Below are positions 21,366-47,018 of a stretch of DNA of 64,000 bases, piece after piece. The DNA is from Nitrososphaerota archaeon. Its GTDB lineage: Archaea; Thermoproteota; Nitrososphaeria; Nitrososphaerales; UBA57. The stretch lies in assembly GCA_002713205.1 (NCBI GenBank), contig PAVW01000006.1, forward strand, positions 4,779 through 68,778. The letters run 5' to 3'. Below the pieces are notes generated by a model, which was not told the origin of the DNA, did no database searches, and saw nothing but the letters and a program-made list of their open reading frames with translations. A program made the position numbers and the translations under genes. How positions within the stretch are numbered: the stretch's first letter is position 1; each line of letters opens with the position of its first letter.

Positions 21366-21372
21366 TGATTAT

Positions 21373-26183: not shown

Positions 26184-27481
26184 ATGAATATTATGGAATT
26201 CAAGCTGCCTAGAGGGATGAGGGATATAGAGCCAGCAGAATATGCTATTATCGAAGAGGTTAGAGAAGCTTTCAAACAAACATGTAAGGTTTTTAATTTT
26301 AGAATAATGGAGCCATCACCTATAGAAATGTTATCAACATTAGAAGCTAAAGGAGACCTAGCAATCAGAGATGAAATATATTATTTCAAAGATAAAGGAG
26401 ACAGAGAATTAGGATTAAGATTTGATCTAACGGTTGGTATAACAAGAAACATAACCCAAAAAAAAGGAATCGTATTACCGGTCAAAATTGGGACATTTGG
26501 AAGCATGTTCAGATATGATGAACCTCAATATGGCAGATATAGATGGTTTCATCAATGGAATGCTGAAATTTATGGAGAAAATGAATTAGAAGCCGAAGCT
26601 GAAATTATAGATTTTACTACGTTTCTTTTTAATATATTAGGACTGAAAAATCTAATAATTAAAATAGGTGATAGAAGACTTGCAGAAGATTTCATAAGAA
26701 AAGAATTAAAAGAAAATGATTTAGAAACGGTAAAAAAATTACTGCGACTTCTAGATAAAACAAATAAAAAGAATGATAATGAAATAATTGATGAAGCGAA
26801 ACAATCTGGAATATCAAGAGAGATAATTATTAATCTTCTAGAATTTGGAAAAATAAAAGAATCGCCTGAACATTTAAAGAAAATGATAATATAAAAAATA
26901 GAAGATGTCAAGATATCATAACTCTTGTAGATCTTCTTAAAGAACGAAATATTAGAAATATTGAAATAGACTTTGGTTTAGTACGAGGTTTAGATTATTA
27001 TTCTGGTGTAGTATTTGAAATAATCAATAACGATGATCCAAATATTGGATCAATTGCAGGAGGAGGAAGATATGACAAACTGCCAGAAAATTTTGGAAGA
27101 AGTGATTTAGGTGCGGTTGGAATTGCTGGCGGGATAGAAAGAACAATATCTGCATTAATAAAACCATCAGATATATATAATAATATTATTTATATCGCCT
27201 ATACAAATTATAAATTTAAAAAAGAGATACTATCCTTGACAAAACAACTTAGAGAACATGGATTAACTGTTTCTTATGACTTAACAAATAAAAAATTAAA
27301 GAGGCAATTTGAATTGGCTGCTTTACGGAACTGTAAAATGTTAATTCTATTTGCTGATAAAGAATATTCTGAGGGGAAAGTTATTCTGCGTAATATGACA
27401 ACTGGAAAAGAAGATTTAATCAATAAAAATATAATAAAAAAATCAATATTAAATGAATTAAATAAATTTAAAAAAAAATAG
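26184..27481 (+). pseudogene. hisS: Histidyl-tRNA synthetase, reading frame interrupted (frameshift near 26870-26891)
   Basis: The N-terminal 236 codons carry class II motifs (LPRGMRDIEP; FRYDEPQYGRYRWFHQWNAEIYG) and end at TAA 26892-26894. The remainder is open in a different frame from 26870 to 27481 and has no ATG before 27236; it encodes LVRGLDYYSGVVFEI, GGGRYD, GIAGGIERT and the anticodon-binding domain. Joined length would be about 430 aa, normal for HisRS. This could be an assembly error rather than a true pseudogene. Confidence 0.8.
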
Positions 27482-27547: not shown

Positions 27548-30500
27548 ATGAAGGAGAATCTAGTATTATTTTGTTTAATTTGTTTAATTTTATCGTTACA
27601 GACTGTAATTATAGTTCCGACGAGTCAAGGTGAAAGTGACGAAATTTCTATTGACGCAATTCCGTCAGAATATATTGTAATTACAAAAGGTAGCAGTGGA
27701 ACAATCACACTAGATATAACAAAAGTAAATAGCACGTTAGGAAGTGGAAATCCTATAAGAACGGTGTCAATAAGTGTAGAGAATTTGCCTACTGGAAGTA
27801 GCGCAAGTGTTTCTAGTCCTTTTAGCACTTCGGTATTTGTAGGTGTGACAAGTTACAATTTAGACGTTACAATTACAGCACCTCTTAGCGTAGAAAGCGG
27901 GAGTTACAATGTAGTATTCAGAGCTACATTAGATAAAGATTCTGAAGATGTAAATACGAATGATGTAACAAAAACAGTAACTGTATATATTTCAGATTTT
28001 GAACTTTCCACATCATCATCTACAGTTACACTTATGCCTGGTGAAAGTGAAGAGATAGTATTAACAGCAAAATCATTGAATAATTTTTCCGGGTCGGTGG
28101 ATGTAATTTTACCAACAGTAACGGGTGCAGTAATTGAAAACTTAGGAAGTCTAAACGTTCCTGAAGGAACTCAAGATACTACAAATATTAGATTTACAAT
28201 AAACAGCAATGCAGTAGAAAATGGTAATGGCGTTCCTGTAGATATAAAAACTAAAGTAGGAAATTTGGAACGTATAATCACAATTACTTTAAAAATTATT
28301 CCAAATACCCTTCAGATAGAATTAACAGCAGATCCTAATCCTGTAGTTATTTTTCAAGAAAGTGTGATTACAGCGACTATCAAAGATGGTAACGGAATTG
28401 TGATTTCAGGAGCAAATGTAACGCTATCATTTTCAGGTGGAAGTGGTAGTTTTTCAAATTCATTATCTTCTATTGCAGGTATTACTGATTCGAATGGAAA
28501 ATTTTCCGATCAGTTCGAGGTGATTAAAGGAGTAGTAATAATCAAAGCAGAAACCTCAAAAACCAACTATGGTACGAGTAGTACGACCATAACGCTAGGT
28601 ACAAAAGGACATTTTGAACTTTCAGTGGAACCAGATAGTAACATAATAAATGCAGGGGATCAAAAAACTTTGACTGTGTCTGTACGATCAATTGATGGCT
28701 TTAATTCGCCCGTTAAACTGTCATATGCAGGAGGAGGAATAGGGATTTCAGTAGAGTTCACTTCCAGTGATATAATAACGCCACCACCAAACGAGACTTC
28801 TGAAGCTAGTGTTTTAATTACACTTTCAAATTCTGTAGATCCAAAACTTTACAGTGTGCAATTAATTGGGGTAGATACAATAACAGGCGAGTTGTCAAAG
28901 ACTGCAACATTTTCTATTGATGTGCCGGAAGTCGATATAGCAATAACTATCACGCCAAGTAAACAAACTATTAATCAAGGAGATATAGCATTATTCAACA
29001 TTACATTGTTATCACTTGGTGGTTTTCAAAGTGATGGTGTTACTTTAAAAACAGATCTACCTGACGATATGGAGGTGACGTTTATACCTAATCCAGTGAC
29101 GTTAGAACCTGGTGGAAATAGAAAACTTCAGTTGCGTATAGAAACAAATGACAACACCAATCCAATTGATGAGTATCCCATAATTATTGCTGCAACATCT
29201 CTAAATTCTGAAACTACAATAACTGCGTACTTGACGGTTAAAGAGTTATTCGATGTATTTTTTGATTCAACACATAGGATAGGGGGAGAAGAATTGGCTG
29301 TTGTTAAAATTTTTGTAGATGGTTTTCCAATACAAGAAGAAGATCTACCAGCTCATAGGAAATATGTCGAAGGAACAAATATCACAATAAAAATCCTCAA
29401 CAATATAGTTGATGAGGAAAAGGGAGTACGATACAAATTTAATTCTTGGAACGATGGAAGTGTATCAGTGGAAAGAAAAATCACCGTGGATAGATCTTCG
29501 ACATTTAGAGCGGAATTTGATAAAGAATTTTTACTTGAACTTAAAACTACACCAATTGGTGTTACAAAACCGTTAGGTGATGGATGGTATAAAGAATATA
29601 CTGAAGTTTCAATAAACACAATGCCAATAGTTGATATAACGGATACATCAAGATACAAATTTCAAAACTGGGACGGAGCAATATTAGCCAAAAATGAAAG
29701 GACGGATATAGTAATGGATGCGCCAAAACAAATTTTTGCGAATTATATATTGCAATATAGAATAAGTAGAACTGTAGAACCTGAATTTCTGAAGAATTTA
29801 ATTAATTTGTCAGAAAAGGAATGGGTTGACAGAGGAGCGCAAATCGATTTAGTAGCAGACGAAAAAGTCAACGAATATGGTTTTAAACAATGGATTATAG
29901 AAAGCAGTCTAGGAAGAGAGTCTATAATTAACAATCCTTGGAAAATAAGTGTCAATGAACCAATTAATATAATTTTAGAATATCAGCTTCTTCCTGATGT
30001 ACAAATAGTATCAGTAAATATGGCAAATAACGGATTTGAAGGAGAATTTTCACATATGTGGTTGAATTTAGCGAATAATCATCTTAGAGGAGGAGACATA
30101 ATAATAAAAGTAGAAACGAGCATAGATGGACTTGTAATTACACCATTAAAAATTGAAATGTTTATCGATGCAAATGAAGAAAAGACAATATCATTTATGA
30201 TTAATTATACAAAACAAGGTAGCGGAACAATAAAATTTACACTGGAAAAGACTGCACAGATGGAATCGAAAGAGTTTTATAAAGAATTTAAAATATTTTC
30301 ACAGAATGAAAAGAGAATTGTGATAAATATGGGTAAATCTCTTAGTGCTAAGCATCTTCCTGAGTTTAATAGTTTAATGGAGCCAAATGATAGAGTAATA
30401 ATTTGCGCGACAGAAATAATTGAACAAACAATGCTACAAGAAAGTGCGACTGAATTAGAAAAAGCAAGATTAATTTTAAAATTTTTGTCATCGAGAATTA

Positions 30501-31978
30501 TAAGTGTACCTGAAATACAACCACGTAGTGTATCAGAACTAATACGTGAATTTGGAGTTATGGGTTGTGCAAATAGTAACAATATTATAGAAGGAGACTC
30601 AAGAACAGCACAAATACTATATGGAGGTTTATTGAGATCAATTGAAATTGAAGTAAGACCGGTTATAGGCATCTTAGGTACGTCGACAAATATGATTTCG
30701 CCAAATGTTGAATTACATGCATGGCTTGAAGTAAAATTAGATAACCAGTGGATAATTATCGATCCATCAACTGGGATAATGTCTATTGATTTAATACTGC
30801 CGGAGAATGTACAAGGAGAATTTAATCAACGTGAGATATTCAATGCAATACCAGAGCAAGGTGGAATATTATCAGCTATGATGTATAAATGCATTACGAT
30901 ATGTAATATAGATATAACTGAATCATACAGTGGAAAAGTGCCAATTTTTAATCCAGGGTCAATGATTTTTGTAGAAGGAGATGTAAATGTGAATATAATA
31001 GACTCAAATCGTAATTTCATCACTAATGGAACTTTAGTTACATATTCATGGTCAGAGAATAATCAAGAAGAGAGTTTATCAAGATTTGTAAAGTTAATTA
31101 TGTTGTCAGAAGGTGTAGATCTGCAATATATAACAATAAACATAGAAGGGCAATTGGGAAAACAATTTCAACTAAATATATTGAATTCGATTAATTTTGA
31201 ATATAAAGTAACTTCTATTTCACCGACTTTATTTTCAAAGTCGGAAGTAGAATATAAAATTCAGATAGAAGGAAATAAATTATCAATATATGAATTTGTT
31301 ACGTTGGAATTCGAAGAAAATGAAATTGATATTATATCAACTTCATCAATAATTAGAGAAAGTCAACAAAGAAGATTAACGGCAATAGAAATTACAGTAG
31401 CTGGTAATAAAGGCAATACAGGAACAGTGATAATAAGCATACCTAGAGAAATATTTTCAGAACTGAATTCAGAATCAACAGATATAATTGTAATAATAGA
31501 TGAACAAAGAGTACCGGTAGAAATAATAGATGATGAATTAATACCAATAATAAAAATAAATTACATATTTAATATGGAAAAAGAAATTCAAGAAAAAAGA
31601 ATCATAGTTTTCTTAAAAACATATAAAGTTTCATTCGAATTGAGAGATCCACTAAATAGAATAATTAATAATGCCGAAATAAAAATGATCGGGGAAACTG
31701 AAAATAGAACGCAAATAAGTAACCAACCAATATTTGAACAACTTCATCCTGGGAATTACAAATTTACAATTAATTATAGAGGCGAATTAGAAGAGATTTC
31801 AAAACGAATTAATGATGATGATATAAACGTTAGAATTAATTTATTTAGATCAGATTCTATGGTTAGTTTCATAACAGCAGGTATTTTTATAATAATTGCA
31901 GTAATATCCTTCGGTATACAAATTGCTCTTTCAAAAGTAATACCTGAAGATAAAAAGAAATCAGCTTCGGGTTCTTAA
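27548..31978 (+). CDS. Giant surface protein with transglutaminase-like core, signal peptide and C-terminal TM anchor
   Basis: 1476 aa. The N-terminal leader is LVLFCLICLILSLQTVIIVPTSQG. The N-terminal half is a long Ser/Thr-rich Ig-like or CARDB-like repeat region. Transglutaminase-like Cys-His-Asp pattern: MGC(1007)ANS...LLRSIEIEVRPVIG...H(1057)AWLEVKLDNQWIIID(1072)PSTG, codons 30566-68, 30716-18 and 30761-63. C-terminal helix is ITAGIFIIIAVISFGIQIAL. Confidence 0.7.
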   Translation: MKENLVLFCLICLILSLQTVIIVPTSQGESDEISIDAIPSEYIVITKGSSGTITLDITKVNSTLGSGNPIRTVSISVENLPTGSSASVSSPFSTSVFVGVTSYNLDVTITAPLSVESGSYNVVFRATLDKDSEDVNTNDVTKTVTVYISDFELSTSSSTVTLMPGESEEIVLTAKSLNNFSGSVDVILPTVTGAVIENLGSLNVPEGTQDTTNIRFTINSNAVENGNGVPVDIKTKVGNLERIITITLKIIPNTLQIELTADPNPVVIFQESVITATIKDGNGIVISGANVTLSFSGGSGSFSNSLSSIAGITDSNGKFSDQFEVIKGVVIIKAETSKTNYGTSSTTITLGTKGHFELSVEPDSNIINAGDQKTLTVSVRSIDGFNSPVKLSYAGGGIGISVEFTSSDIITPPPNETSEASVLITLSNSVDPKLYSVQLIGVDTITGELSKTATFSIDVPEVDIAITITPSKQTINQGDIALFNITLLSLGGFQSDGVTLKTDLPDDMEVTFIPNPVTLEPGGNRKLQLRIETNDNTNPIDEYPIIIAATSLNSETTITAYLTVKELFDVFFDSTHRIGGEELAVVKIFVDGFPIQEEDLPAHRKYVEGTNITIKILNNIVDEEKGVRYKFNSWNDGSVSVERKITVDRSSTFRAEFDKEFLLELKTTPIGVTKPLGDGWYKEYTEVSINTMPIVDITDTSRYKFQNWDGAILAKNERTDIVMDAPKQIFANYILQYRISRTVEPEFLKNLINLSEKEWVDRGAQIDLVADEKVNEYGFKQWIIESSLGRESIINNPWKISVNEPINIILEYQLLPDVQIVSVNMANNGFEGEFSHMWLNLANNHLRGGDIIIKVETSIDGLVITPLKIEMFIDANEEKTISFMINYTKQGSGTIKFTLEKTAQMESKEFYKEFKIFSQNEKRIVINMGKSLSAKHLPEFNSLMEPNDRVIICATEIIEQTMLQESATELEKARLILKFLSSRIISVPEIQPRSVSELIREFGVMGCANSNNIIEGDSRTAQILYGGLLRSIEIEVRPVIGILGTSTNMISPNVELHAWLEVKLDNQWIIIDPSTGIMSIDLILPENVQGEFNQREIFNAIPEQGGILSAMMYKCITICNIDITESYSGKVPIFNPGSMIFVEGDVNVNIIDSNRNFITNGTLVTYSWSENNQEESLSRFVKLIMLSEGVDLQYITINIEGQLGKQFQLNILNSINFEYKVTSISPTLFSKSEVEYKIQIEGNKLSIYEFVTLEFEENEIDIISTSSIIRESQQRRLTAIEITVAGNKGNTGTVIISIPREIFSELNSESTDIIVIIDEQRVPVEIIDDELIPIIKINYIFNMEKEIQEKRIIVFLKTYKVSFELRDPLNRIINNAEIKMIGETENRTQISNQPIFEQLHPGNYKFTINYRGELEEISKRINDDDINVRINLFRSDSMVSFITAGIFIIIAVISFGIQIALSKVIPEDKKKSASGS

Positions 31979-33298
31979 CAATTTGTTTAAATTTTTATCA
32001 TAAATTACGAAGGTATTTTCTAGTTTTTTAAGGTCATCTTCAGTAATATTGAATTCATCCCATAACTCCATATCATGAATATACGACTTAAAACTGTCAT
32101 AGCCATTTTGCAATGGCTTAATTATATTTTCTAATTTTGCGCCACCTAATAATAATAAAACATCCATTCTATCAGAAGTCTCACGTACAGGAACAATGTG
32201 TAACAATGATTCTTTGAGTGCAGGAAATCGTTTTCTATTCCAAGAATTATAATCATCTTCTATACGTTTAGAAGATATATTTTGGAGAACAGTTTCAGGA
32301 ACTCTTATTATAGCAATACTTAGAATAATTGATTCAAATTCAAATGGCGAAAGTGGGAAATATGCAGCGTCGTCAAGAATATTTTTTATATTATCATATA
32401 TTTCATAACTTCTCCCATAGACATAAACCGGAGAAAATGCAAGTACTTTTAGAGATTTTGCAATTCGACTTAAGTTATTAATAGTAGTTCCATGTTCAGA
32501 TATCAAATTAAGCATTCGAGGAACTAAAACATCTGAATTTAATGTTTTACCAGAACGATCTATTCCTATCATTTTCTCAAGTGCATTACCTTGAAGAACC
32601 ACCAATATATCTCCAGAAGCCTTTTGACTTTTAATTATTCGAGAGAGGCCACAATATGCATTAAATTGAATTTGATCAGTATCAGTAGTCGATGGTAACA
32701 CAGAAAAAATAATTCTAGATGTTCCTTGGTTAATTGATTGGATTTTACGAAGGACATAAGGCGTTATAGCAGAAACTAATGGTTCACCCAGTAAACCAGT
32801 CAATATAACAGTCTGGTCTTGGATATTCTCATTAATACCGACTCGTCGGATGTGATCATCTAATTGTTTATTTTCAGACAAATTAGATCCTATACCGCTC
32901 CAGAGATTAATTTCATTACTTATATTCAAATCAAATTTAAATATTCCATTATTTGATTCAACATTATTATTTTTTATATCTGAAAACGATTCTAAATCCG
33001 ATTTAGAAGAACCCAATACCAAATAATTAGAAGATGATTGGTAGGTATGTGTACTGAGATTAAAAATAGTTTGAGAACCGTATAAACCAATACCAAGATT
33101 AATAATTTTTTTACTTTTCGTGAGGTTTTGATTTGTAAACATATCAATAATAAATTTTAATTCTTGTTGAAAATTAATAAGTGGTGAATCACAAGTTGCG
33201 CAATCATCTAGTCCGCGGACATTCTTATGTCCATCAGGACATAAAATAAAGGAATCAGAATTTGATTTACGATTATTAGGACGAATTCTAATATTCAT
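31961..33298 (-). CDS. Degenerate FtsZ/tubulin-fold protein with N-terminal Zn-ribbon-like element (predicted pseudo-GTPase)
   Basis: The ORF track gives 31961..33382 (473 aa). I prefer Met29 (33298) as the start, which leaves an 82-nt divergent intergenic region. It carries CPDGH-x8-CATC, then FtsZ-like segments at FtsZ-like spacing (about 100 and 104 aa apart). T1 position is INLGIGLYGSQ versus GVGGGGxN. T4 position is ILTGLLGEPLVSA versus GMGGGTGTG. T7 position is TTINNLSRI versus INVDFADV. All three nucleotide or catalytic motifs are degenerate. Confidence 0.55.
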   Translation of the reverse strand: MNIRIRPNNRKSNSDSFILCPDGHKNVRGLDDCATCDSPLINFQQELKFIIDMFTNQNLTKSKKIINLGIGLYGSQTIFNLSTHTYQSSSNYLVLGSSKSDLESFSDIKNNNVESNNGIFKFDLNISNEINLWSGIGSNLSENKQLDDHIRRVGINENIQDQTVILTGLLGEPLVSAITPYVLRKIQSINQGTSRIIFSVLPSTTDTDQIQFNAYCGLSRIIKSQKASGDILVVLQGNALEKMIGIDRSGKTLNSDVLVPRMLNLISEHGTTINNLSRIAKSLKVLAFSPVYVYGRSYEIYDNIKNILDDAAYFPLSPFEFESIILSIAIIRVPETVLQNISSKRIEDDYNSWNRKRFPALKESLLHIVPVRETSDRMDVLLLLGGAKLENIIKPLQNGYDSFKSYIHDMELWDEFNITEDDLKKLENTFVIYDKNLNKLLRTRS

Positions 33299-33380
33299 GT
33301 CAATAATAGAAACCACATAGTGATACAAATAATTTTTCCAAAAATACGTAAATACTATAGAAATATTCGATAAAATAAGC

Positions 33381-34367
33381 ATGAAAAGTAATCAAACAAT
33401 CAAATATGATTCAATCATGGTTGATGAGAACGGAGTAAAAACAAAGGGCAGAATACATGTATCGAATGTAAGTTTATCCTTTGAAAGAAAAATTGGATTA
33501 ATATCAAAAAAATTTGAACCGATGTTAAAAATTCCAATCGAATCAATAACGTCTTTTAATAAAAAAACATATTTTGAAATAAGTCTTAATTATGTAATTT
33601 CAGATCAAAAAGTAATAATAAATATTATTTTTAATACTCCCGCAGAAGTAATAGAAATAATAGAAAAAATTAATTCTTTGAAAAGTAATCTGGAAATCAA
33701 AGAGGAAAGAAACCAACAATTAGAACAAGATAATAAGATAAATAAAATAGATTATTCAACATATATTTATGATACTAGTTTCAAAATTTTATCAATAATA
33801 TCAATAATATTTGAACTTTTAAAAGAAAATACAAATAGTAATTGGGATAATGTAGATAATGAATATAAAAAATTTAATGAATTAATTGCATCACTTGAAA
33901 ATAATAATATAAATCTAGTACAAGATTCTACAAAAATAAAATCTGCACTTCAAACTAGAGATACTGAGAAAATATTTAATTCAATGAAAGCAAGTATTAG
34001 AACACTGGGAAACGTCTTAGAATCAGAAATTCCATACAAAGAATGGAATGAATATGATAATTCAATAAAACCAAGCTGGAACAATATTCAAATATTTTAT
34101 TTATTAACACTATCATTGAATCAAGCTATATATTTTTCTAAATTAAATATTGATTTTGATAAAGATAAAACATTAAACAATATATTCAAATATATTCCAA
34201 TTGTAAATTCAAATTTTTCAAATATAGCATCGTATGATAAAGATGAAATATCGAATAAGATGATAAAGGATGATCCTGAAATATTAAAAGAAATAATCAC
34301 ACAAATGTCAATGAATTTACAAAAGAATGTGAAAGAATTATTAAAGCAAGCAAGCTTATTATCCTAA
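33381..34367 (+). CDS. Hypothetical protein with a beta-rich N-terminal domain (PH/GRAM-like?) and a helical C-terminal region
   Basis: 328 aa with no TM segment. The first ~100 aa alternate short hydrophobic strands ending in an amphipathic helix (PAEVIEIIEKINSLKS). The remainder is Asn/Lys/Glu-rich and helical. The fold call is a guess. Confidence 0.45.
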   Translation: MKSNQTIKYDSIMVDENGVKTKGRIHVSNVSLSFERKIGLISKKFEPMLKIPIESITSFNKKTYFEISLNYVISDQKVIINIIFNTPAEVIEIIEKINSLKSNLEIKEERNQQLEQDNKINKIDYSTYIYDTSFKILSIISIIFELLKENTNSNWDNVDNEYKKFNELIASLENNNINLVQDSTKIKSALQTRDTEKIFNSMKASIRTLGNVLESEIPYKEWNEYDNSIKPSWNNIQIFYLLTLSLNQAIYFSKLNIDFDKDKTLNNIFKYIPIVNSNFSNIASYDKDEISNKMIKDDPEILKEIITQMSMNLQKNVKELLKQASLLS

Positions 34368-36829
34368 TTTTTAAGAATTTTGTGTAGAATACTAGTTTTT
34401 GTGTCAAAAGATATCTTCTTTTTACCAATAGCAAATAATTGAAGATATTGTATTGCATATTTTGATTTTACAGGTAATTGCGTTGGAAGAACTTTTCCAT
34501 CTATTTTAATCAATGAAGAAATCAATGGCTCAATATTGATATAATTTAAGATAAATTCATTCATTATCAGATATTTTTTAAGTGTGTTAGTTTCATTTTC
34601 AATAATTTTTATTCCATATTCAATATTAGAGAGTCTATCAGAAACATCATTAAGTACCTGATCATCTAATTTTCCTAAAGATGCTTTAATATCTGAGATT
34701 AACTGTGTATCCTTACCCCAATGAAAATCAGCCGGAATTTTAGAATCATTTCGTTTTTCAAATTCATGTAATAATTGTAATAGTTCTTCAATAACTGTTC
34801 GAGTTCCTGATTCAAGGAAAGCTAGCGAATCCATAACATCAGGTAAATAAAGAATCCCGCGAAAAGTTTCAAGATTTTCAAAATCCTTAGAAATTCTTTG
34901 AGTAATAAGACCAGTTTCAGTTGTTTTCGGGTCTTTACCTAATGATTCATTTAATGGTAAAACATTAGATTCGTACATCTTAACTGATCGTTTAATCAAC
35001 TTTTTTAAATTGACAATAGTTTTTTGCATTATTTTCATGTATCTTTGATTTAATGAATTAATTGTTACTAACAATGAATCCAGAGCTTGTTCTCCCTGAC
35101 CTTGTTGAATGAAATTTTCGCTAATTGAAATAGATGTTGCTTCAAGTGTAGGATCGAAATTTCTTTGTACTACTTTAACAAGTTTATCAGAAATATTAAT
35201 AGTATTTTGTGATAATTCTAGAAGGAAATTATTTAAATCGTCCTGATGACTAAGAATTATTGTAAAGGCAATTTCTGCATCAGGATCTAAATGTGTTAAC
35301 TCAATATCAGGTAAATTAACTATTCCCAACTTATTTAAACTATTGAGCAGAGTCTTACTTTTATCTAATTGTCTATTATGATATTCAATTAATTTCTTAT
35401 GCAAATTAATTTCATTTTCAGATTGAATAGCTGAAAGTTCATATATTATTTTAACTTTAGAATTTAAAATTTTATAAGATAAAGTATCAACACCATCAAG
35501 TGTAATAAGCAATTCCTCTTTGAATTTGTTAGCTGCAGTAAGTTCAAAATTGATATCAATTCCAGGACAAGCATCTTGAATTTTTTTTATTTTTTCAAAG
35601 AAAGCATCTACTAATAAAGAATGATCTTTACAAACTTTTTTAATTGTTTCATTCAATTGTGCAGATATATATCGTTTGGATAAACTTATTGAACTAACGG
35701 AAAGAATTACGCCAAACCCTCCAGCAGATAAAATAGTTTTTAATGAATTTGAAAAATTAAAACTGGTATAATAATCAAAGGGAATTTGCATGGTCTGTAA
35801 TGGAATAATAAAGAAAATACAGCCTAAAATAATAGTAAATATGAACGAGAAATCCGGAATTTGATTAAGATCAACACCACGTAACTTTAACCAAGGCCAT
35901 ATTCTATCCATAATACCAACAACAGAAAATGTGACAAGTAGTAAAAGTGGAATAAATAAAATAACCAACCGATCAATTAATAAAAATAAATAAGGATGAA
36001 ATACGTCATTTTGTACAGTTAAAATTCCTGAAAATAATTCACGAATGACGGGTAAATCAAATGAAGATAACCTAGGATTCTCATTAAAAATCAATTGATT
36101 GAAAAGAGGTAGTGATTCTGAACTCATAATGTGAAAAATTTCTTGTGGATTTAAATTTTCATTAATATTTGCATTATATGCAAAAGAAAGAGCGCCAAAA
36201 GGAATAAGTATCATAAGAAACATAAAACACATTCCTAAATTGCGTAAGAATTCATGGTCTTTTCGAATTAAAACAATCGACAACATTAATGGAATAGAAA
36301 TGAAATAATAAGGAGTTAAAAATAATGCTCCTGATATTAGACCAATAATAGGTGATAACAAATTATTTTTATTAGTAAGAGATCTAACTGTGAATAATCC
36401 TACAAAAAACAAATTAATTAATAACCACCAGAAAGGGACACTGGTTTGATATAGATAAGCTGGAATGAAAGTAAAAATCGATAGTGAAAATCCTATAAGA
36501 GGAGATCTAAAACCAATAACTGACGTTATAATAGCTATAAGAAATACTATTGGAACCGGATATAAGGGAATTACATACAACAATGTTGCAGTAAGAATAA
36601 ACAAGAGAATAGAAAGAAATACGTTCTGTAGGTTTTTACGGTATTGAATTTCTCGTTCTATTGCATTATCAATAGAAGGCGAGGGCCTTATACCAACTTT
36701 GTCAATAACTGAACTGTTAATGAGAGATGGCAAGGTAGTTTCTACATGTTTTTTATTATCAATACTAAGAATCTGTATCTTCAATCTTTTCTGTAGTAGT
36801 AAGTTGATGATCAGGTGATATGTGAACAC
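34364..36829 (-). CDS. Polytopic membrane protein (about 10-11 TM) with ~430-aa helical/coiled-coil cytoplasmic C-terminal domain
   Basis: 821 aa. Residues ~70-390 form successive hydrophobic helices; residues ~390-821 are heptad-like and helical. The annotated start overlaps the upstream gene by 65 nt. A TTG about 20 nt inside the upstream stop region is an alternative start. Either way the two genes appear translationally coupled. Confidence 0.6.
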   Translation of the reverse strand: MFTYHLIINLLLQKRLKIQILSIDNKKHVETTLPSLINSSVIDKVGIRPSPSIDNAIEREIQYRKNLQNVFLSILLFILTATLLYVIPLYPVPIVFLIAIITSVIGFRSPLIGFSLSIFTFIPAYLYQTSVPFWWLLINLFFVGLFTVRSLTNKNNLLSPIIGLISGALFLTPYYFISIPLMLSIVLIRKDHEFLRNLGMCFMFLMILIPFGALSFAYNANINENLNPQEIFHIMSSESLPLFNQLIFNENPRLSSFDLPVIRELFSGILTVQNDVFHPYLFLLIDRLVILFIPLLLLVTFSVVGIMDRIWPWLKLRGVDLNQIPDFSFIFTIILGCIFFIIPLQTMQIPFDYYTSFNFSNSLKTILSAGGFGVILSVSSISLSKRYISAQLNETIKKVCKDHSLLVDAFFEKIKKIQDACPGIDINFELTAANKFKEELLITLDGVDTLSYKILNSKVKIIYELSAIQSENEINLHKKLIEYHNRQLDKSKTLLNSLNKLGIVNLPDIELTHLDPDAEIAFTIILSHQDDLNNFLLELSQNTINISDKLVKVVQRNFDPTLEATSISISENFIQQGQGEQALDSLLVTINSLNQRYMKIMQKTIVNLKKLIKRSVKMYESNVLPLNESLGKDPKTTETGLITQRISKDFENLETFRGILYLPDVMDSLAFLESGTRTVIEELLQLLHEFEKRNDSKIPADFHWGKDTQLISDIKASLGKLDDQVLNDVSDRLSNIEYGIKIIENETNTLKKYLIMNEFILNYINIEPLISSLIKIDGKVLPTQLPVKSKYAIQYLQLFAIGKKKISFDTKTSILHKILKN

Positions 36830-39470
36830 CTTGTTCTAATAGAAATGAATGAGAAAGGAGTGTTTCACCTTTTGTTGTTTGGTTGTAAAGTATTCCCATT
36901 TCCTTAAAATTGTCTAAATCCGAAGGAGATGCTTTTGCAGCAATAATGAGAAATCTCATTGTCCAAGGATCATCAGAATCAACTTCTCTAATATAGATGC
37001 TTTTAGATGCATCTTTACTTACATAGCCCGCAAGCATGGTTTTTGCTTCAGAATCTAAATCAGAATCCCAAATACCACGCGGACTAACTACAGTAAACCA
37101 CAGGTAATCAGTGCGATATTTTGAAGTCAACCCGAGAGTAGCAGGAATTCGAAAGATTCCCAAAGCACTTGCTAAATATTCTTTCAAATGTTTGCGATCA
37201 ATAATCTCATTGAGCATATTTTCCTGAGTTAAAGAAGCTTCATCTTCAAGTAAAATACGTTGCATAATTTTTAGTTGTTCACCTTCAGTTAGTTCTGCGA
37301 CACGATCATAATAACCTCGATCTCTCATAGTTTCATTCATTTTTTCATAGTAAGAATTTTCAAAAGTAGTAGCTTCAGTTAACATTTTTCTATAATTAGA
37401 AGCTACTTCAAATTTTCTTTCAATATTAGTATAAGCAGAGAGTTTATTTTCAAGGATCTGTCTTTCACCACTTACAGCATTAATTTGTTGATCAATAAGA
37501 TGCAATTCATGTTCTAAATCAGAAGATTTACTTTGCATAATTTTTTTGCGCGGTCCTAGAAACCCAAATCGAATCTTTTTTGCCTGTCCACCAACACGAT
37601 CTTTTTCCTGGGTTCTACTTTTCTGTTTTATTAATAATGATTCTTCATGTGTACGAAGAGTATCTAATCTTTCAGATATAATACGTTTCATTACTTGACA
37701 ATCACTTAATCGCGCATCAAGAGTTTTAACTTCTAATGAAATAGGGGAAAGAAGAGAAGATAATAAAGCAAAATTAATAACAAGTTCTGGATTAGATATT
37801 CTGGAAACAGATTCTTTCATACGATCATGTAATTCACTCTGATCGAGTTTATCAATAGTTTTAGATAATTTATCGGACAAATTATGAATTTGTAAGTAAA
37901 GTTTCAGACCGTCAAGATAATAATTTATTAATCCAATTAAATTAATTGTATCATTAATAATTTGTAATTGTCGAGGAGTTAAACTTTGAGCACTAGGGAG
38001 AGTTGATTGAAGATCTTCAGTGAGTGTTTTTACTTTTTCTTGTAATTTTTGATAATTTTGAGAGAGATTAAGGCTCAATGAGACCATTTCTTCAGAAAGA
38101 GATCGTATTCTAGATTCAACTGTGCCGTCTACAGCATTTAATCCTATGGACAAAACAGATTTCGATAAATCCGTGATTAGACTTCTAACTGAATCTTCGA
38201 CCCCTCGAATATGCATAACAAGATCAGCGTCCATAGATGTCCCCTCACCAAGAAAACTCTGTACGGTCGATTCAAACCTTGATTCGTCATAAGTGTTTTT
38301 TTCAATAAGAAGTCGTCGATATATAGATTTTAATTCAAGAAAATCTGAGTCGAAGATTGTTTTCAAACCAAAAGTTTCTTTTGTTCCATTATAAATATCT
38401 AATTTTTCCCGTCGTAATTCTCGAAGTCTATCGAGTTTATCTAGATAGATTTTTGTGAGATCAATAAATTCAGCAACAGGATAAGAAACTTTTAGAGTTG
38501 ACATAACATTGACCCATTTCCCATCTAAATCAACATTAGAACCAATATTACTAAATAAATCGGCTAAATCAAAGTTTAATGATTTCATTAGAATATCAAC
38601 AATAGCTTCATCAACTAATTTTCTAGCATCTAGTACACTACCAGCTCTGCTATAAGCAGGACCTAAGGACATCATAAGAAATGCAGTAAATGGATTTTGA
38701 TATGTATCCCCATATTTACTAGTAATTTTATGATTTAATGATCTATCAATTGCAAATTCATGCTCTAACAATGCAGCATAGCTAGCAGCGCCTTTTGCAG
38801 GAGGATCATCACCACTACAAGGCAATATAGTTAAACCAATTATAGGAATTCCACTACCTATTTTTTTACGTAGATGTCGTGTAAAATCTAGTGCAGTGCC
38901 ACTTCCAGAACCACCGCCAAGTCCATAAATAATAAATATAATTGGTTGTACTGTAGAAGTAAAAACATGTTCCTTAAATTTATCCATATAACCATCAACA
39001 AGTTTTAGATGGTGATAATTTAAACCGTATATTGCTTTAGAAAGTGCACGTTTTCTTCCCACACCACCAGCTAAAGGAGGTATTTCCATTGAAGAGGAAA
39101 GCCAAGGAATATAGTTATCTGGTACTTTTACACCTTCTCTTTGTAAAAATTCAGGATAATTTTGGATAAAATCAAACATAGATTCAGGAGTTGGGAATTT
39201 CATTGTCTTGCTAACCAATTTAATTTTATCAGCAGGAATATTATTAATCTTCAAATCGTCACCAAGTCTCTTATATGCCATATCAAGGCTACGAATGTCG
39301 TGATCAGCAACGTCCAATGATAAGAGAGATACCTTAACCCCTTCAATTTTTAGGAGGTCGATAAGATCAGATTTATTTTTAATAAATGCCTCAATTACAT
39401 TAGCACCAGTTCCTCCTAATCCAATTATCTGTATAGAATTCGTATAACTGCGAGCTTTGTTTTCTGACAA
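36765..39470 (-). CDS. FtsZ/tubulin-superfamily GTPase fused to a long coiled coil and a C-terminal globular domain
   Basis: 901 aa. T1 is IIGLGGTGANV (39399-39422). T3-like segment is LAGGVGRKRALSKA. The T4 tubulin signature is GLGGGSGSG (38898-38924). The T7-like segment is LNFDLADLFSNI (38559-38576), about 110 aa after T4 as in FtsZ. Residues ~330-720 are heptad-rich. Residues ~720-901 look globular. Confidence 0.75.
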   Translation of the reverse strand: MSENKARSYTNSIQIIGLGGTGANVIEAFIKNKSDLIDLLKIEGVKVSLLSLDVADHDIRSLDMAYKRLGDDLKINNIPADKIKLVSKTMKFPTPESMFDFIQNYPEFLQREGVKVPDNYIPWLSSSMEIPPLAGGVGRKRALSKAIYGLNYHHLKLVDGYMDKFKEHVFTSTVQPIIFIIYGLGGGSGSGTALDFTRHLRKKIGSGIPIIGLTILPCSGDDPPAKGAASYAALLEHEFAIDRSLNHKITSKYGDTYQNPFTAFLMMSLGPAYSRAGSVLDARKLVDEAIVDILMKSLNFDLADLFSNIGSNVDLDGKWVNVMSTLKVSYPVAEFIDLTKIYLDKLDRLRELRREKLDIYNGTKETFGLKTIFDSDFLELKSIYRRLLIEKNTYDESRFESTVQSFLGEGTSMDADLVMHIRGVEDSVRSLITDLSKSVLSIGLNAVDGTVESRIRSLSEEMVSLSLNLSQNYQKLQEKVKTLTEDLQSTLPSAQSLTPRQLQIINDTINLIGLINYYLDGLKLYLQIHNLSDKLSKTIDKLDQSELHDRMKESVSRISNPELVINFALLSSLLSPISLEVKTLDARLSDCQVMKRIISERLDTLRTHEESLLIKQKSRTQEKDRVGGQAKKIRFGFLGPRKKIMQSKSSDLEHELHLIDQQINAVSGERQILENKLSAYTNIERKFEVASNYRKMLTEATTFENSYYEKMNETMRDRGYYDRVAELTEGEQLKIMQRILLEDEASLTQENMLNEIIDRKHLKEYLASALGIFRIPATLGLTSKYRTDYLWFTVVSPRGIWDSDLDSEAKTMLAGYVSKDASKSIYIREVDSDDPWTMRFLIIAAKASPSDLDNFKEMGILYNQTTKGETLLSHSFLLEQGVHISPDHQLTTTEKIEDTDS

Positions 39471-39478
39471 CTATATCA

Positions 39479-40408
39479 CTACTCTAAATGTTCAAGTTCC
39501 TTTTTAATACTTTCAATTTCAGTTGCTAGTTCCTTATCAATTCGTTGTGCGCGAACTAATACAAGATCAAGTCGATTTGCTTTGTCATTCACATAGCTAA
39601 CTAAAAATGAATTTGAAGTACGAGCACGATAAAATAGAAATGCTAGAATTAATGAAATAAGTGCAAAAGAAATAGAAGCTGCCATATACAAAGTTGTAGT
39701 CATAGGCGGTTCAGGGAAATCAGAATTAGGGATAGTAGAAAGAAGAACAATTGCATCATCATAAAAACCAAAAGAAGTTAATGTCTCTGCTTCATTAACA
39801 ATACTAAGTGCTAATTCAGAATACTTAGCATCCATACTGGTTTCAGATAATATTTTACGTTTATCAGATAACAAATTTTCATAAGTAATAATTGTCTGAT
39901 CGGTAATTGTGTAAGTTTTATCATCAAGAATCTCCATAGACTCTAATGAAAGAATCAAAATAGAAAATTGTTGCAAAGAATGAACAGTTTTTTGTATATC
40001 TTGAAGTTGTTGTTCAGTTATATCACCAGGAATCATACCATTGAGAGTAAATTCTGCAATTCCTTCCTTAGCTTGAAACATAATTGATTGTGAACCAGGA
40101 GTCCACGTTGAAGTATCTACACCAGCATAATTATTTTCCAATGTCCAAAATTCATTTCCTGATTTTTCCATACTAGTAGAAAGTAAAATATTATCACTGA
40201 GTGTTGCACCAATTTCTATAGTAAACTTAACAGTATATGCACCACCAGCAACAAGAGACTTGTCTGTAATGTCATTTCCATTTGGATCCAATACAACAAA
40301 ACTAGATAGAACTGCGGGTGCTTGTTCAAAGGAAAGAGGAATTTGAAAACAACAAGTCAATAACAAGAAGAATAATAGTGCAGAAACAAAATTTAATTTT
40401 AAATTCAT
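39479..40408 (-). CDS. Bitopic membrane protein with signal peptide, extracytoplasmic beta-rich domain, TM helix and short helical cytoplasmic tail
   Basis: 309 aa. Leader is FVSALLFFLLLTCCFQIP; TM helix is TLYMAASISFALISLILAFLFY; the tail ends RIDKELATEIESIKKELEHLE. Its stop lies 8 nt upstream of the 901-aa gene start. Confidence 0.55.
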   Translation of the reverse strand: MNLKLNFVSALLFFLLLTCCFQIPLSFEQAPAVLSSFVVLDPNGNDITDKSLVAGGAYTVKFTIEIGATLSDNILLSTSMEKSGNEFWTLENNYAGVDTSTWTPGSQSIMFQAKEGIAEFTLNGMIPGDITEQQLQDIQKTVHSLQQFSILILSLESMEILDDKTYTITDQTIITYENLLSDKRKILSETSMDAKYSELALSIVNEAETLTSFGFYDDAIVLLSTIPNSDFPEPPMTTTLYMAASISFALISLILAFLFYRARTSNSFLVSYVNDKANRLDLVLVRAQRIDKELATEIESIKKELEHLE

Positions 40409-44058: not shown

Positions 44059-44269
44059 TATTAAATTTTAATATCTAGTTAAAATAGTTTCCTTGATAGC
44101 AATTCGAGTAAAGGTTAAAAGAAAAAACCAGTATTATGGTTATTATGAATATTGGAGAATTTTTCGGCTTTATTAATAATTCATTAATTATGCTTTTCAT
44201 AATTTCAATTGTTTTAATTTTTGTCTATGAATATCAATCTAATAAAACTGAGAAAATTTAGATGAATAT

Positions 44270-47017: not shown

Positions 47018-47018
47018 A

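What the first reader, a model, noticed from the sequence alone, without database searches (positions are those of the whole stretch)
31961..33298. FtsZ-fold paralogue with degenerate T1, T4 and T7 motifs and an N-terminal Zn-ribbon-like element (pseudo-GTPase)
Segments line up with FtsZ at near-native spacing, but the functional residues are replaced.
- T1: GIGLYGSQ replaces GGGGxN.
- T4: GLLGEPLVS replaces GGGTGTG.
- T7: INNLSRI replaces NxDxxD.

Flanking hydrophobic patterns are retained: IIFSVLPSTTD versus VTKPFxFEG, and DILVVLQGNAL versus DxxIxIxNDxL. A C-x3-H-x8-C-x2-C element precedes the domain.

Some archaea that divide with the Cdv/ESCRT-III system are known to retain divergent FtsZ-like proteins of unknown role. 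Finding such a protein next to an intact FtsZ-like GTPase and membrane partners suggests a regulatory or capping subunit.
Basis: partly seen in the sequence, partly recalled or inferred. Interest (0 to 1): 0.65.

Follow-up and report, generated by a model that had tools for sequence, protein, structure and literature searches.

The report
Dead tubulin-like protein with zinc ribbon
This gene encodes a well-conserved tubulin/FtsZ-superfamily protein that has lost its GTP-binding and catalytic motifs but carries a zinc-ribbon head; it sits in a six-gene membrane-spanning module next to an intact FtsZ-like GTPase in marine thaumarchaea, and the family has apparently not been described.

Summary
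Window 31961..33298 (-) encodes a 445-aa protein with a full tubulin fold (AF2 pLDDT 76; Foldseek E about 1e-13 to gamma/beta-tubulin, CetZ and OdinTubulin). It is closer to tubulin/CetZ than to FtsZ proper.

- **Motifs:** the GGGTGSG signature is replaced by G-E-P-L-V-S-A. The T6 Asn is Gly. The T7 segment has no acidic residue. T1 keeps only GxxGxQ.
- **Zinc ribbon:** a C-x3-H-x8-C-x2-C element precedes the domain and is invariant in the clade.
- **Not decay:** all 35-99% identical thaumarchaeal orthologues share the degenerate T4, and dN/dS is 0.05-0.20.
- **Derived state:** more distant family members keep LGGGTGSG, with or without the zinc ribbon, so the dead state arose inside an active family.
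- **Context:** the gene lies in a strictly syntenic six-gene module: type-I membrane protein, FtsZl1 GTPase (901 aa), polytopic membrane protein, 328-aa protein, this gene, and a 1476-aa transglutaminase/Ig surface protein.
- **Wider parallels:** a hot-spring Nitrososphaeria relative has the module with a near-intact copy. Haloarchaea and Methanoperedens have an analogous two-tubulin operon.

The protein differs from the published thaumarchaeal FtsZ, Nmar_1262. I rate it a new variant of a known kind.

The parts
31961..33298 (-). Candidate gene: 445-aa zinc-ribbon tubulin-like pseudo-GTPase (stop codon included)
   Evidence: ORF and translation. 59 thaumarchaeal orthologues. AF2 model with pLDDT 76. 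Foldseek matches to tubulins at E about 1e-13. dN/dS 0.05-0.20.
33173..33250 (-). N-terminal Zn-ribbon-like element, aa 17-42, with ligands C20, H24, C33 and C36
   Evidence: C20, G23, H24, C33 and C36 are invariant in the degenerate clade (A6). The same CPxGH-x8-CxxC element occurs in relatives with intact GGGTG. Relatives hit Zn_Ribbon_1 PF13240 at E about 1e-4, below threshold; the window copy gives no hit.
33071..33094 (-). T1 loop equivalent GIGLYGSQ (aa 69-76): GxxGxQ retained, tubulin-type
   Evidence: HMMER alignment to BtubB GQCGNQ. G69, G71 and G74 are invariant.
32768..32797 (-). T4 signature-loop equivalent TGLLGEPLVSA (aa 168-177), with GGGTGSG replaced by GEPLVSA
   Evidence: Alignment to TubZ/BtubB. 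E172 is invariant and G171 nearly so in all degenerate-clade members. Other family branches keep LGGGTGSG.
32579..32611 (-). S6/T6 equivalent DILVVLQGNAL (aa 230-240); the guanine-contacting Asn position is Gly237
   Evidence: Alignment to BtubB LLDNEAL and the family motif table.
32462..32491 (-). T7/H8 equivalent GTTINNLSRI (aa 270-279); T272 and N275 sit at the two acidic positions
   Evidence: Alignments A1, A2 and fam.aln. Intact relatives have (D/E)xx(D/E)(Y/W). Deeper thaumarchaeal orthologues P0056/57, P0059 and P0062 keep the second acidic residue.
33299..33380 (.). 82-bp AT-rich divergent intergenic region between the candidate and the 328-aa gene (presumed promoters)
   Evidence: Sequence. 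The divergent arrangement is conserved in all thaumarchaeal loci.
33381..34367 (+). p328: 328-aa cytoplasmic protein of unknown fold, divergently transcribed; a thaumarchaeal-clade-specific module member
   Evidence: No hit in Pfam, NCBIfam, PADLOC or PDB. No TM segment. Syntenic in L001, L002, L004-L012, L041, L044 and L045.
34364..36829 (-). TM821: polytopic membrane protein (about 8-9 TM) with a 430-aa all-helical soluble C-half. The true start is probably about 30 codons downstream of the listed GTG.
   Evidence: TM scan. AF2 of the C-half gives pLDDT 83 and long helices with no PDB fold match. Homologues lie immediately upstream of the tubulin-like gene in L013 and L043, and more remotely in L003 (E 7e-8).
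36765..39470 (-). FtsZl1-type GTPase, 901 aa: N-terminal FtsZ-like domain with intact GLGGTGAN and GLGGGSGSG, then a long mostly helix-prone (presumed coiled-coil) region and a C-terminal domain
   Evidence: Pfam Tubulin_2 PF13809 at E 3.4e-10, 40 bits, above the 27-bit cut-off. The length and N-terminal domain fit the architecture described in PMC2875224; the coiled coil and C-terminal domain were not tested here. A T7-like xFDL(A/S)DL motif is conserved about 115 aa after T4. 77% identical to L001 and 48% to L013.
39479..40408 (-). p309: type-I membrane protein (signal peptide, about 210-aa ectodomain, one TM, short cytoplasmic tail); first gene of the FtsZl1 operon
   Evidence: Translation and TM scan. 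Syntenic in thaumarchaeal loci, with a homologue next to FtsZl1 in L013.
27548..31978 (+). TG1476: 1476-aa surface protein (signal peptide, Ig-like Big_1/CarboxypepD_reg/DUF11 domains, transglutaminase core, C-terminal TM anchor), convergent with the candidate and overlapping it by 18 nt
   Evidence: Pfam. TM scan. Syntenic in all thaumarchaeal loci.

Best explanation
**Shown: what it is**
- The gene encodes a functional, vertically inherited member of a small archaeal tubulin-like family. One large branch of that family carries an N-terminal zinc ribbon.
- In a thaumarchaeal sub-clade that includes this window, the nucleotide pocket has been dismantled. The T4 signature is GGGTGSG to GE(P/T)LVS(A/G), with an invariant Glu at the second position. 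The T6 Asn is Gly.
- In the window's own sub-lineage, the two T7 acidic residues that would activate GTP hydrolysis in a neighbouring subunit are also gone.
- The rest of the tubulin body and the zinc ribbon stay under strong purifying selection.

**Inferred: how it works**
- The protein no longer binds or hydrolyses GTP in the canonical way. It acts as a non-enzymatic structural or adaptor subunit of a six-gene, envelope-spanning module.
- The motor or polymer of that module would be the adjacent, highly conserved FtsZl1 GTPase.
- I think its most likely direct partner is the cytoplasmic helical half of the polytopic membrane protein encoded just upstream, because that pairing recurs across most branches of the family sampled.
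- The zinc ribbon would give a second protein contact.
- It may also bind FtsZl1 assemblies through tubulin-type surfaces without turning over nucleotide. That would amount to a stabilising or terminating subunit.
- The module links these cytoplasmic tubulin-superfamily proteins, through p309 and TM821, to a giant transglutaminase/Ig-domain surface protein. This suggests envelope or S-layer organisation, or cell-shape control, rather than Cdv-type division.
For: **Fold and homology**
- AF2 pLDDT 76, pTM 0.75.
- Foldseek: gamma-tubulin 3cb2 E 4.5e-14, beta-tubulin TM 0.66, CetZ 3zid, OdinTubulin 7evl, all full length.
- Clade-only profile hits TubZ and AtubB2; hhalign 99.8%.

**Motif loss**
- Residue-level mapping onto TubZ/BtubB and the family motif table.

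**Derived state, not ancestral**
- In a rough NJ tree the degenerate clade nests among Zn-ribbon branches that keep LGGGTGSG.
- The hot-spring Nitrososphaeria locus L013 has SLGGGMGSG and INVSDL in the same module.

**Selection**
- dN/dS is 0.05-0.13 among orthologues.
- dN/dS is 0.20 for the window versus its 90%-identical relative. That is equal to or lower than its neighbours at 0.31 and 0.22.
- E172 and the Cys/His ligands are invariant.

**Module**
- The same six genes occur in the same order in L001, L004-L010, L012 and L045; contig-truncated L002, L011, L041 and L044 show the corresponding parts of it. The aconitase and POR flanks match where the contigs extend that far (L001; POR side also in L002).
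- Topologies from TM scans.
- FtsZl1 passes the Pfam Tubulin_2 cut-off and keeps T1, T4 and a T7-like motif.

**Conserved partner**
- A TM821-type protein lies immediately upstream of the tubulin-like gene in L013, L043 and L003, and in haloarchaeal/Methanoperedens operons.

**Rates**
- The candidate evolves at about the same rate as p309 and TM821, and more slowly than p328 and TG1476.
Against: - No binding, polymerisation or interaction was tested, and no interface prediction was possible.
- T1 (GxxGxQ), the T3 Asn-x-Trp and the T5/FNA block are retained, so non-canonical nucleotide binding is not excluded.
- The gene is a separate transcription unit, divided from the FtsZl1 operon by an opposite-strand gene. 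Functional coupling rests on conserved synteny only.
- FtsZl1 has its own T7-like motif and so does not obviously need a partner.
- The fold of the TM821 C-half gave no informative match.
- The ANME-2 relatives of the family do not share the neighbourhood.
- The NJ tree is rough: BLOSUM distances and no support values.
Confidence: 0.6

Rival explanations
1. The protein is still a nucleotide-binding, self-polymerising tubulin-like cytoskeletal protein. It would use a remodelled pocket, so it is divergent rather than dead, and it would form its own filaments independently of FtsZl1.
For: T1 keeps GxxGxQ, the T3 Asn-x-Trp is kept, and the T5/FNA block is kept. The M-loop-position block YGRSYEIY is invariant, which would fit lateral contacts. 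Deeper orthologues keep the T7 acidic residue.
Against: Five of the seven T4 residues whose backbone amides wrap the phosphates are replaced, two by Glu and Pro/Thr and the others by bulky aliphatics. The T6 Asn is Gly. The window lineage has no T7 acidic residue. By precedent, Nmar_1262, which lacks the motif, did not polymerise, and restoring GGGTGTG did not rescue it (PMC3684127).
Confidence: 0.12
2. The six-gene cluster is a conflict or defence system of the tubulin-plus-coiled-coil type proposed by Kaur, Burroughs, Iyer and Aravind (2020). The dead tubulin would then be a decoy or sensor subunit.
For: Proteins with a tubulin domain fused to a coiled coil, with membrane and extracellular partners, have been read as NTP-dependent conflict systems. 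Inactive enzymatic domains are common in such systems (PMC7159879).
Against: The cluster has no vWA protein, no TRAFAC GTPase, no HSP70 and no recognisable effector. PADLOC gave no meaningful hit. The module sits at one fixed chromosomal position between aconitase and POR genes in genomes whose candidate orthologues are 59% identical (L001); the 36%-identical L002 retains the POR flank. It evolves under strong purifying selection, with FtsZl1 77% to 48% identical. This is the behaviour of a housekeeping locus, not a variable island.
Confidence: 0.1
3. The gene works independently of its neighbours. It would be a zinc-ribbon-mediated regulator, binding nucleic acid or protein, that merely happens to be syntenic.
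For: It has its own promoter region and is monocistronic, convergent with one neighbour and divergent from the other. The zinc ribbon is among the most conserved parts.
Against: Linkage to a TM821-type protein persists across Thaumarchaeota, Methanoperedens and Halobacteria despite gene-order changes. Linkage to FtsZl1 and p309 persists in L013 with a different order.
Confidence: 0.1
4. It is a decaying relic (pseudogene in the making) of an active tubulin-like gene.
For: Catalytic motifs are lost. Its Pfam score is below threshold.
Against: The reading frame is intact in every full-length thaumarchaeal copy examined. dN/dS is 0.05-0.20. The degenerate T4 sequence is itself conserved, with an invariant Glu. 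There are many invariant blocks.
Confidence: 0.02

Closest known systems
Halo.Tub / CetZ-like archaeal tubulin paralogues (Santana-Molina et al. 2023, PMC9871819)
   Same: The intact-motif, zinc-ribbon-less branch of the same family occurs in Halobacteria and Methanosarcinales/Methanoperedens. It has two tubulin genes in quasi-tandem and coiled-coil or helical neighbours, which fits the published description of Halo.Tub. hhalign to the window's clade gives 99.8%. It shares the tubulin-like FNA/YNA block and the C-terminal helices.
   Different: I could not confirm identity with Halo.Tub because the text gives no accessions. The window protein has an N-terminal zinc ribbon, lacks GGGTGSG, the T6 Asn and the T7 acids, and is in Thaumarchaeota next to an FtsZl1 gene instead of a second canonical tubulin.
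Nmar_1262, the thaumarchaeal 'FtsZ' of Nitrosopumilus maritimus (Ng et al. 2013, PMC3684127)
   Same: It is a tubulin/FtsZ-superfamily protein in a Cdv-dividing thaumarchaeon that lacks the GTP-binding signature and the T7 loop. It does not polymerise in yeast, even with GGGTGTG restored.
   Different: It has a different variant motif (AGKAGSA versus GEPLVSA). No such motif occurs in any of the 209 family sequences collected or in the window. No zinc ribbon or module context has been reported for it. I did not have its sequence for a direct comparison.
FtsZl1 / Tubulin_2 family (Makarova & Koonin 2010, PMC2875224)
   Same: This is the family of the 901-aa neighbour: an N-terminal FtsZ-like GTPase, a coiled coil and a helical C-domain, predicted to form membrane-remodelling complexes with membrane proteins.
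   Different: The candidate itself is not FtsZl1. It has no Tubulin_2 hit, it has a complete tubulin C-terminal domain and it has no coiled coil. The thaumarchaeal module lacks the vWA, P-loop GTPase and OmpA partners described for FtsZl1 operons.
Eukaryotic tubulin, gamma-tubulin and CetZ structures
   Same: These are among the top-ranked structural matches over the whole chain (TM 0.6-0.7), including helices H11 and H12. T1 has the tubulin-type GxxGxQ.
   Different: Sequence identity is 10-15%. The signature motif is absent. There is an extra zinc ribbon and a low-confidence insert at aa 105-130.
Beta-tubulin's T7 and the non-hydrolysed N-site GTP of the alpha/beta heterodimer (general textbook knowledge; analogy only)
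   Same: It is a tubulin-family subunit whose T7 lacks the catalytic acid. A nucleotide in the partner it contacts would therefore not be hydrolysed. This is a possible model for a stabilising or capping role beside FtsZl1.
   Different: Beta-tubulin binds GTP itself, whereas this protein almost certainly does not. No heterodimer has been shown.

Membership tests
Tubulin/FtsZ superfamily | Two-domain fold: Rossmann-like nucleotide-binding domain, core helix H7 and a C-terminal activation domain | tested here: met
   The AF2 model (pLDDT 76) has the full S1-S10/H1-H12 order. Foldseek gives E 4.5e-14 to 1e-12 and TM 0.57-0.71 to gamma/beta-tubulin, CetZ and OdinTubulin over about 445 columns.
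Tubulin/FtsZ superfamily | Significant sequence-profile match (Pfam PF00091, gathering score 33 bits) | tested here: inconclusive
   The window protein scores 14.3 bits, E 0.051, below the cut-off but spanning the whole profile. Orthologues score 20-25 bits. Family members P0060 and P0061 pass at 38 bits. hhalign between the two branches gives 99.8%. The clade-only profile hits TubZ at E 0.0022.
Tubulin/FtsZ superfamily | Signature motif (G/A)GGTG(S/T)G in loop T4 | tested here: not met
   GEPLVSA sits at the aligned position. The loop is degenerate in all thaumarchaeal-clade members.
Tubulin/FtsZ superfamily | T7 loop NxDxx(D/E) that activates GTP hydrolysis in the adjacent subunit | tested here: not met
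   T272 and N275 occupy the two acidic positions, and aa 270-282 contain no acidic residue. Deeper orthologues keep the second acid.
Tubulin/FtsZ superfamily | GTP binding, GTPase activity and nucleotide-dependent polymerisation | not testable with these tools
   This needs biochemistry. Model coordinates and docking were not available.
FtsZ proper | FtsZ equivalog profile (TIGR00065), GGGGxN in T1, and the FtsZ_C domain with a C-terminal peptide | tested here: not met
   No NCBIfam hit. T1 is the tubulin-type GxxGxQ. The top 50 fold matches shown include tubulins, gamma-tubulin, CetZ and OdinTubulin but no FtsZ chain.
CetZ | CetZ-type fold with intact GTP-binding motifs; a euryarchaeal cell-shape protein | tested here: not met
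   The fold is similar to CetZ 3zid (E 1.4e-12). However, the GTP motifs are absent and the sequence profile relates it more closely to the Halobacteria/Methanosarcinales tubulin-like branch.
FtsZl1 / Tubulin_2 (PF13809) | Tubulin_2 profile match, followed by a coiled coil and a helical C-domain | tested here: not met
   The candidate has no Tubulin_2 hit and no coiled coil. The 901-aa neighbour meets the profile criterion at 40.1 bits versus a 27-bit cut-off; its coiled coil and helical C-domain were not tested.
Nmar_1262-type thaumarchaeal FtsZ-like | Variant T4 motif AGKAGSA (PMC3684127) | tested here: not met
   The motif is absent from the candidate, from 209 collected family sequences and from the six-frame translation of the window. 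No direct sequence comparison was possible.
Zinc ribbon (Pfam Zn_Ribbon_1 PF13240 / DZR) | Two knuckles supplying four Cys/His ligands on a short beta-hairpin pair | tested here: inconclusive
   C20, H24, C33 and C36 are invariant. Short beta-strands are predicted at low confidence. Relatives score 20-22 bits against a cut-off of 25, E about 1e-4. The window copy gives no hit. Metal binding was not tested.
Pseudo-GTPase (functional class) | GTPase fold retained, nucleotide and catalytic residues lost, and the gene kept under purifying selection | tested here: met
   Fold, motif loss and dN/dS 0.05-0.20. Absence of nucleotide binding is inferred, not measured.

The most novel reading that the evidence does not exclude
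Cdv-dividing Thaumarchaeota may carry a previously unrecognised tubulin-based, envelope-spanning machine. In it, an FtsZl1 GTPase and a nucleotide-free zinc-ribbon tubulin would form a fixed heteromeric pair: one subunit turns over or holds GTP, the other is purely structural, loosely like alpha/beta-tubulin. The pair would be anchored by a polytopic membrane protein and coupled to a giant transglutaminase/Ig-domain surface protein. The module would be homologous to the two-tubulin operons of Halobacteria and Methanoperedens. On this reading, loss of GTP binding came first and loss of the T7 acid came later, which would record a stepwise conversion of a polymer subunit into a cap or adaptor.
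Probability: 0.2. Interest if true: 0.8.

Novelty: new variant of a known kind. Interest (0 to 1): 0.6.

Why it matters
Thaumarchaeota divide with the Cdv/ESCRT-III system, yet they keep tubulin-superfamily genes whose roles are unknown. The one studied so far, Nmar_1262, neither polymerises nor localises to the division site.

This finding adds a second, distinct tubulin-like lineage. It has three features I did not find described for this family in the papers I searched:
- A zinc-ribbon fusion.
- A conserved loss of the GTP pocket under strong purifying selection.
- A fixed six-gene context that joins it to an intact FtsZl1 GTPase, membrane proteins and a huge surface protein.

That context gives concrete, testable partners for an archaeal cytoskeletal pseudo-enzyme. 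It also offers a natural series for asking how a polymerising GTPase becomes a non-catalytic scaffold. The series runs from intact, to T4 lost with T7 kept, to both lost. The same question is relevant to the origin of functionally asymmetric tubulin pairs.

The analysis also links thaumarchaeal, haloarchaeal and Methanoperedens operons into one family of 'tubulin plus membrane anchor plus Ig-domain surface protein' systems. All the members whose database names I looked up are annotated only as hypothetical proteins.

Tried and rejected
- **PDB sequence search.** phmmer of the single protein against the PDB found nothing. Only profiles worked.
- **Pattern scans.** The narrower A4 scan of metagenomes returned only 8 loci, and just L043 was an intact Zn-ribbon member with context.
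- **Second homologue search.** The search with A2 returned only thaumarchaeal and Methanosarcinales members and none of the Zn-ribbon/GGGTG branch. As a result, their gene neighbourhoods, apart from L013 and L043, and their taxonomy remain largely unknown. Cluster look-up gave only 'hypothetical protein' names: Nitrososphaerota, Thermoproteota and one Dehalococcoidia-labelled MAG.
- **TM821 C-half.** AF2 gave a confident all-helical model, but Foldseek found no match at E < 0.1. An EzrA/spectrin-like idea is therefore unsupported.
- **Module proteins.** NCBIfam and PADLOC gave nothing. PDB searches of p328 and p309 gave nothing useful.
- **Co-folding.** I did not run co-folding with the FtsZl1 N-domain.
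- **Rejected hypothesis.** I considered that FtsZl1 lacks a T7 loop and that the candidate supplies it in trans. I dropped this because thaumarchaeal FtsZl1 has a conserved xFDL(A/S)DL motif at T7-like spacing, and the window protein has no T7 acid.
- **Literature.** Searches found no paper describing a zinc-ribbon tubulin or this module.

Full report
**1. Observation**

Window 31961..33298 on the minus strand is an intact ORF of 445 codons.

- **Start codon.** The mechanical ORF extends to an ATG at 33382. Most homologues (length 439-455 aa) start at the internal Met, as MNIRIR, MSIRIR or MTRP; only the gene call for the 99%-identical P0001 includes the extension. The longer version would overlap the divergent gene that starts at 33381.
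- **Quoted strings.** Every string is present: GIGLYGSQ (aa 69-76), GLLGEPLVS (168-176), IIFSVLPSTTD (196-206), DILVVLQGNAL (230-240), INNLSRI (273-279), and C20-x3-H24-x8-C33-x2-C36.

**2. Is it really tubulin/FtsZ-like?**

Yes, on several lines of evidence.

- **Sequence, weak alone.** Pfam Tubulin covers profile positions 2-189/190 at only E 0.051, and a single-sequence PDB search found nothing.
- **Orthologues.** They reach E 2.4e-5 and 7.6e-4 against Pfam Tubulin.
- **Clade-only profile.** A profile built only from the motif-degenerate clade hits TubZ (E 0.0022) and Asgard AtubB2 (E 0.0075).
- **Wider profile.** Adding two distant relatives gives TubZ 1.4e-7, BtubB 9e-6, CetZ 2e-5 and gamma-tubulin 3e-5.
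- **Profile-profile.** hhalign of the degenerate clade against the intact-motif branch gives 99.8%, E 2.5e-29, over 375 columns.
- **Structure.** The AlphaFold2 model (pLDDT 76, pTM 0.75) has the complete strand and helix order of tubulin, including two long C-terminal helices. Foldseek returns gamma-tubulin, beta-tubulin, CetZ and OdinTubulin over the whole chain (E 4.5e-14 to 1e-12, TM 0.57-0.71), and no FtsZ chain appears in the top 50 shown.

At family level the protein is tubulin/CetZ-like rather than FtsZ-like. The T1 loop (GxxGxQ) and the FNA block (matching tubulin YNA) fit this.

**3. State of the functional motifs**

Residue-level HMMER alignments to TubZ and BtubB and family alignments give the following.

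| Element | Canonical | Window protein | Note |
|---|---|---|---|
| T1 | tubulin GQCGNQ | G71-L-Y-G-S-Q76 | the two glycines and the Gln are kept |
| T3 | tubulin N-x-W (G-A-G-N-N-W) | I-N-L-W | Asn and Trp kept, flanking Gly lost |
| T4 | GGGTGSG | G171-E-P-L-V-S-A177 | five of seven positions changed |
| T6 | guanine-contact Asn | Gly237 | lost |
| T7/H8 | two acidic residues | T272 and N275 | no acidic residue anywhere in aa 270-282 |

- Glu172 is invariant in the clade.
- The two T7 acidic positions correspond to D251/E254 in tubulin and D209/D212 in E. coli FtsZ.
- Canonical GTP binding, and trans-activation of a neighbour's GTPase, are therefore both very unlikely in this protein. This is an inference from sequence, not a measurement.

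**4. Decay or conserved state?**

The state is conserved.

- **Orthologues.** Fifty-nine thaumarchaeal proteins at 35-99% identity, about 440 aa where full-length, share the degenerate T4 (GE[PTNVA][LI][VTA][SA]) in every representative I aligned.
- **Selection among orthologues.** Pairwise Nei-Gojobori dN/dS is 0.05-0.13.
- **Selection in the window's own lineage.** Against a 90%-identical relative, dN/dS is 0.20. That is as low as or lower than its neighbours TM821 (0.31) and p328 (0.22).
- **Invariant features.** The zinc ligands, Glu172, the FNAxC block, a YGRSYEIY block at the M-loop position and DVLLLLGG are invariant or nearly so.

**5. The family**

An exhaustive profile search of 1.84 billion representatives found only 166 related clusters, 62 of them below E 1e-30. 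They fall into three groups.

- **Group i: no zinc ribbon, intact motifs.** These have intact GGGTG and a T7 of the form (D/E)xxD(Y/W). They come from Halobacteria and Methanosarcinales/ANME-2/Methanoperedens. This is probably the 'Halo.Tub' group of Santana-Molina et al. 2023, though I could not verify that by accession.
- **Group ii: zinc ribbon plus intact or near-intact LGGGTGSG.**
- **Group iii: zinc ribbon plus degenerate T4.** This is the thaumarchaeal clade that includes the window.

In a rough NJ tree, group iii nests inside the zinc-ribbon branch, so the dead pocket is derived. Within group iii, the deeper members keep the second T7 acid: P0056/57 (DLAE), P0059 (TLEE) and P0062 (GLAE). 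The window, its close relatives, the P0018 group and P0063 have lost it. This suggests a two-step loss.

The N-terminal element of relatives matches Pfam Zn_Ribbon_1 just below threshold (E about 1e-4). All named members are annotated as 'hypothetical protein'.

**6. Neighbourhood**

Every thaumarchaeal locus recovered shows this order, complete in L001, L004-L010, L012 and L045 and truncated by contig ends in L002, L011, L041 and L044:

p309, then FtsZl1 (about 900 aa), then TM821, then p328 on the opposite strand, then the candidate, then TG1476 on the opposite strand.

The cluster lies between the aconitase/flavin-reductase/SLOG genes and the HisRS/TusA/POR genes, as in the window.

| Protein | Features |
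|---|---|
| p309 | signal peptide, ectodomain, one TM |
| TM821 | about 8-9 TM plus a 430-aa soluble helical half |
| TG1476 | signal peptide, Ig-like domains, transglutaminase core, C-terminal anchor |
| FtsZl1 (901 aa) | passes the Tubulin_2 cut-off; N-terminal FtsZ-like domain as in the Makarova-Koonin FtsZl1 architecture; intact T1 and T4; conserved T7-like xFDL(A/S)DL motif |

- FtsZl1 is the most conserved module member: 77% identity to L001 and 48% to L013. The candidate is 59% and 27% identical to the same two loci.
- In the hot-spring Nitrososphaeria MAG L013 the same families co-occur in a different order. There, the zinc-ribbon tubulin has SLGGGMGSG and INVSDL, so the association predates the motif loss.
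- A TM821-type protein immediately precedes the tubulin-like gene in L013 and L043. More remotely, the C-half of the L013 protein matches L003_692 at E 7e-8.
- Halobacteria, Methanoperedens and Pyrohabitans carry an operon of this form: about 690 aa with 1-2 TM, a tubulin, small genes, about 695 aa, the family tubulin, then CARDB/CarboxypepD_reg/Ig surface proteins.
- The recurring theme is therefore two tubulin-superfamily proteins, membrane-anchored helical proteins and large Ig-domain surface proteins.

**7. Mechanism (inferred)**

- The protein is most simply a non-catalytic structural or adaptor subunit of this module. It would be held by the cytoplasmic half of TM821 and/or by FtsZl1 assemblies, and the zinc ribbon would give a further contact.
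- Because it lacks both a nucleotide pocket and a T7 acid, any tubulin-type longitudinal contact with FtsZl1 would be non-hydrolytic, so it would stabilise or terminate the assembly.
- The extracellular transglutaminase/Ig protein points to envelope or shape functions.

**8. Rivals**

- **Conflict system (PMC7159879).** This is disfavoured by the absence of vWA, GTPase and effector genes, by the absence of PADLOC hits and by fixed core-genome synteny.
- **Residual nucleotide binding.** It cannot be excluded without biochemistry.
- **Decay.** It is excluded by the selection analysis.

**9. Relation to the literature**

- The published thaumarchaeal 'FtsZ', Nmar_1262, has the variant motif AGKAGSA and fails to polymerise (PMC3684127). 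That motif is absent from this family and from the window. The candidate is therefore a second, distinct dead tubulin-like lineage.
- I found no paper describing a zinc-ribbon tubulin or this module.

**10. Verdict**

- Novelty: a new variant of a known kind.
- Interest: 0.6.

Noticed in passing
window 688..2412 (+): A 574-aa protein matches the 'Animal haem peroxidase' domain (PF03098) over its full length (E 2e-148). This is an unusual family for an archaeon and may reflect horizontal acquisition.
   Followed up: no
window 26184..27481 (+): The histidyl-tRNA synthetase gene is split by a frameshift. tblastn with the 435-aa HisRS of locus L001 matches residues 1-226 in one frame (about 26217-26864) and residues 254-427 in another (about 26912-27436). 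This is either an assembly or sequencing error or a real disruption of an essential gene.
   Followed up: partly
window 36765..39470 (-): The thaumarchaeal FtsZl1 protein is extremely conserved: 77% identity where the candidate is 59%, and 48% to a hot-spring Nitrososphaeria copy. It carries a conserved T7-like motif xFDL(A/S)DL about 115 aa after GGGSGSG. The original FtsZl1 description could not identify T6-H7 elements in the family.
   Followed up: partly
L014, L024, L030, L032, L038, L042 (Halolamina, Halobaculum, Methanoperedens, Pyrohabitans, Natrinema versiforme and a metagenome contig): These loci share a conserved operon of up to 9 genes (all nine in the haloarchaeal loci, a subset in L030 and L032). 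It has two tubulin paralogues, each preceded by a membrane-anchored protein of about 690 aa, followed by CARDB/CarboxypepD_reg/Ig-domain surface proteins. It appears to be uncharacterised and parallels the thaumarchaeal module.
   Followed up: partly
representatives P0111, P0116, P0117: A second group in the family also has a degenerate T4 (SLSEG, SVSDG, STWDG). It lacks a recognisable zinc ribbon and has different lengths (383-496 aa). This may be an independent loss of the GTP signature.
   Followed up: no
protein P0070: One member with a zinc ribbon and intact GGGTG is labelled as coming from a Dehalococcoidia bacterium MAG. This could be a binning error or a transfer to bacteria.
   Followed up: no
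window 2460..2767 (+) and 3467..3562 (+): An archaeal SRP RNA (Rfam RF01857, 107 bits) is followed by a 96-nt tRNA that ARAGORN could not assign. It probably contains an intron.
   Followed up: no
window 17685..25788 and 41776..49340: The gene content includes pyruvate:ferredoxin oxidoreductase, aconitase, malic enzyme, a TPP enzyme and an Lhr-type helicase. The closest genomes are uncultured marine Nitrososphaerales/Nitrosopumilales MAGs at only 58-59% identity for the candidate. The window therefore seems to come from a poorly sampled marine thaumarchaeal lineage. No amo genes appeared among the roughly 20 window ORFs I screened against Pfam.
   Followed up: no
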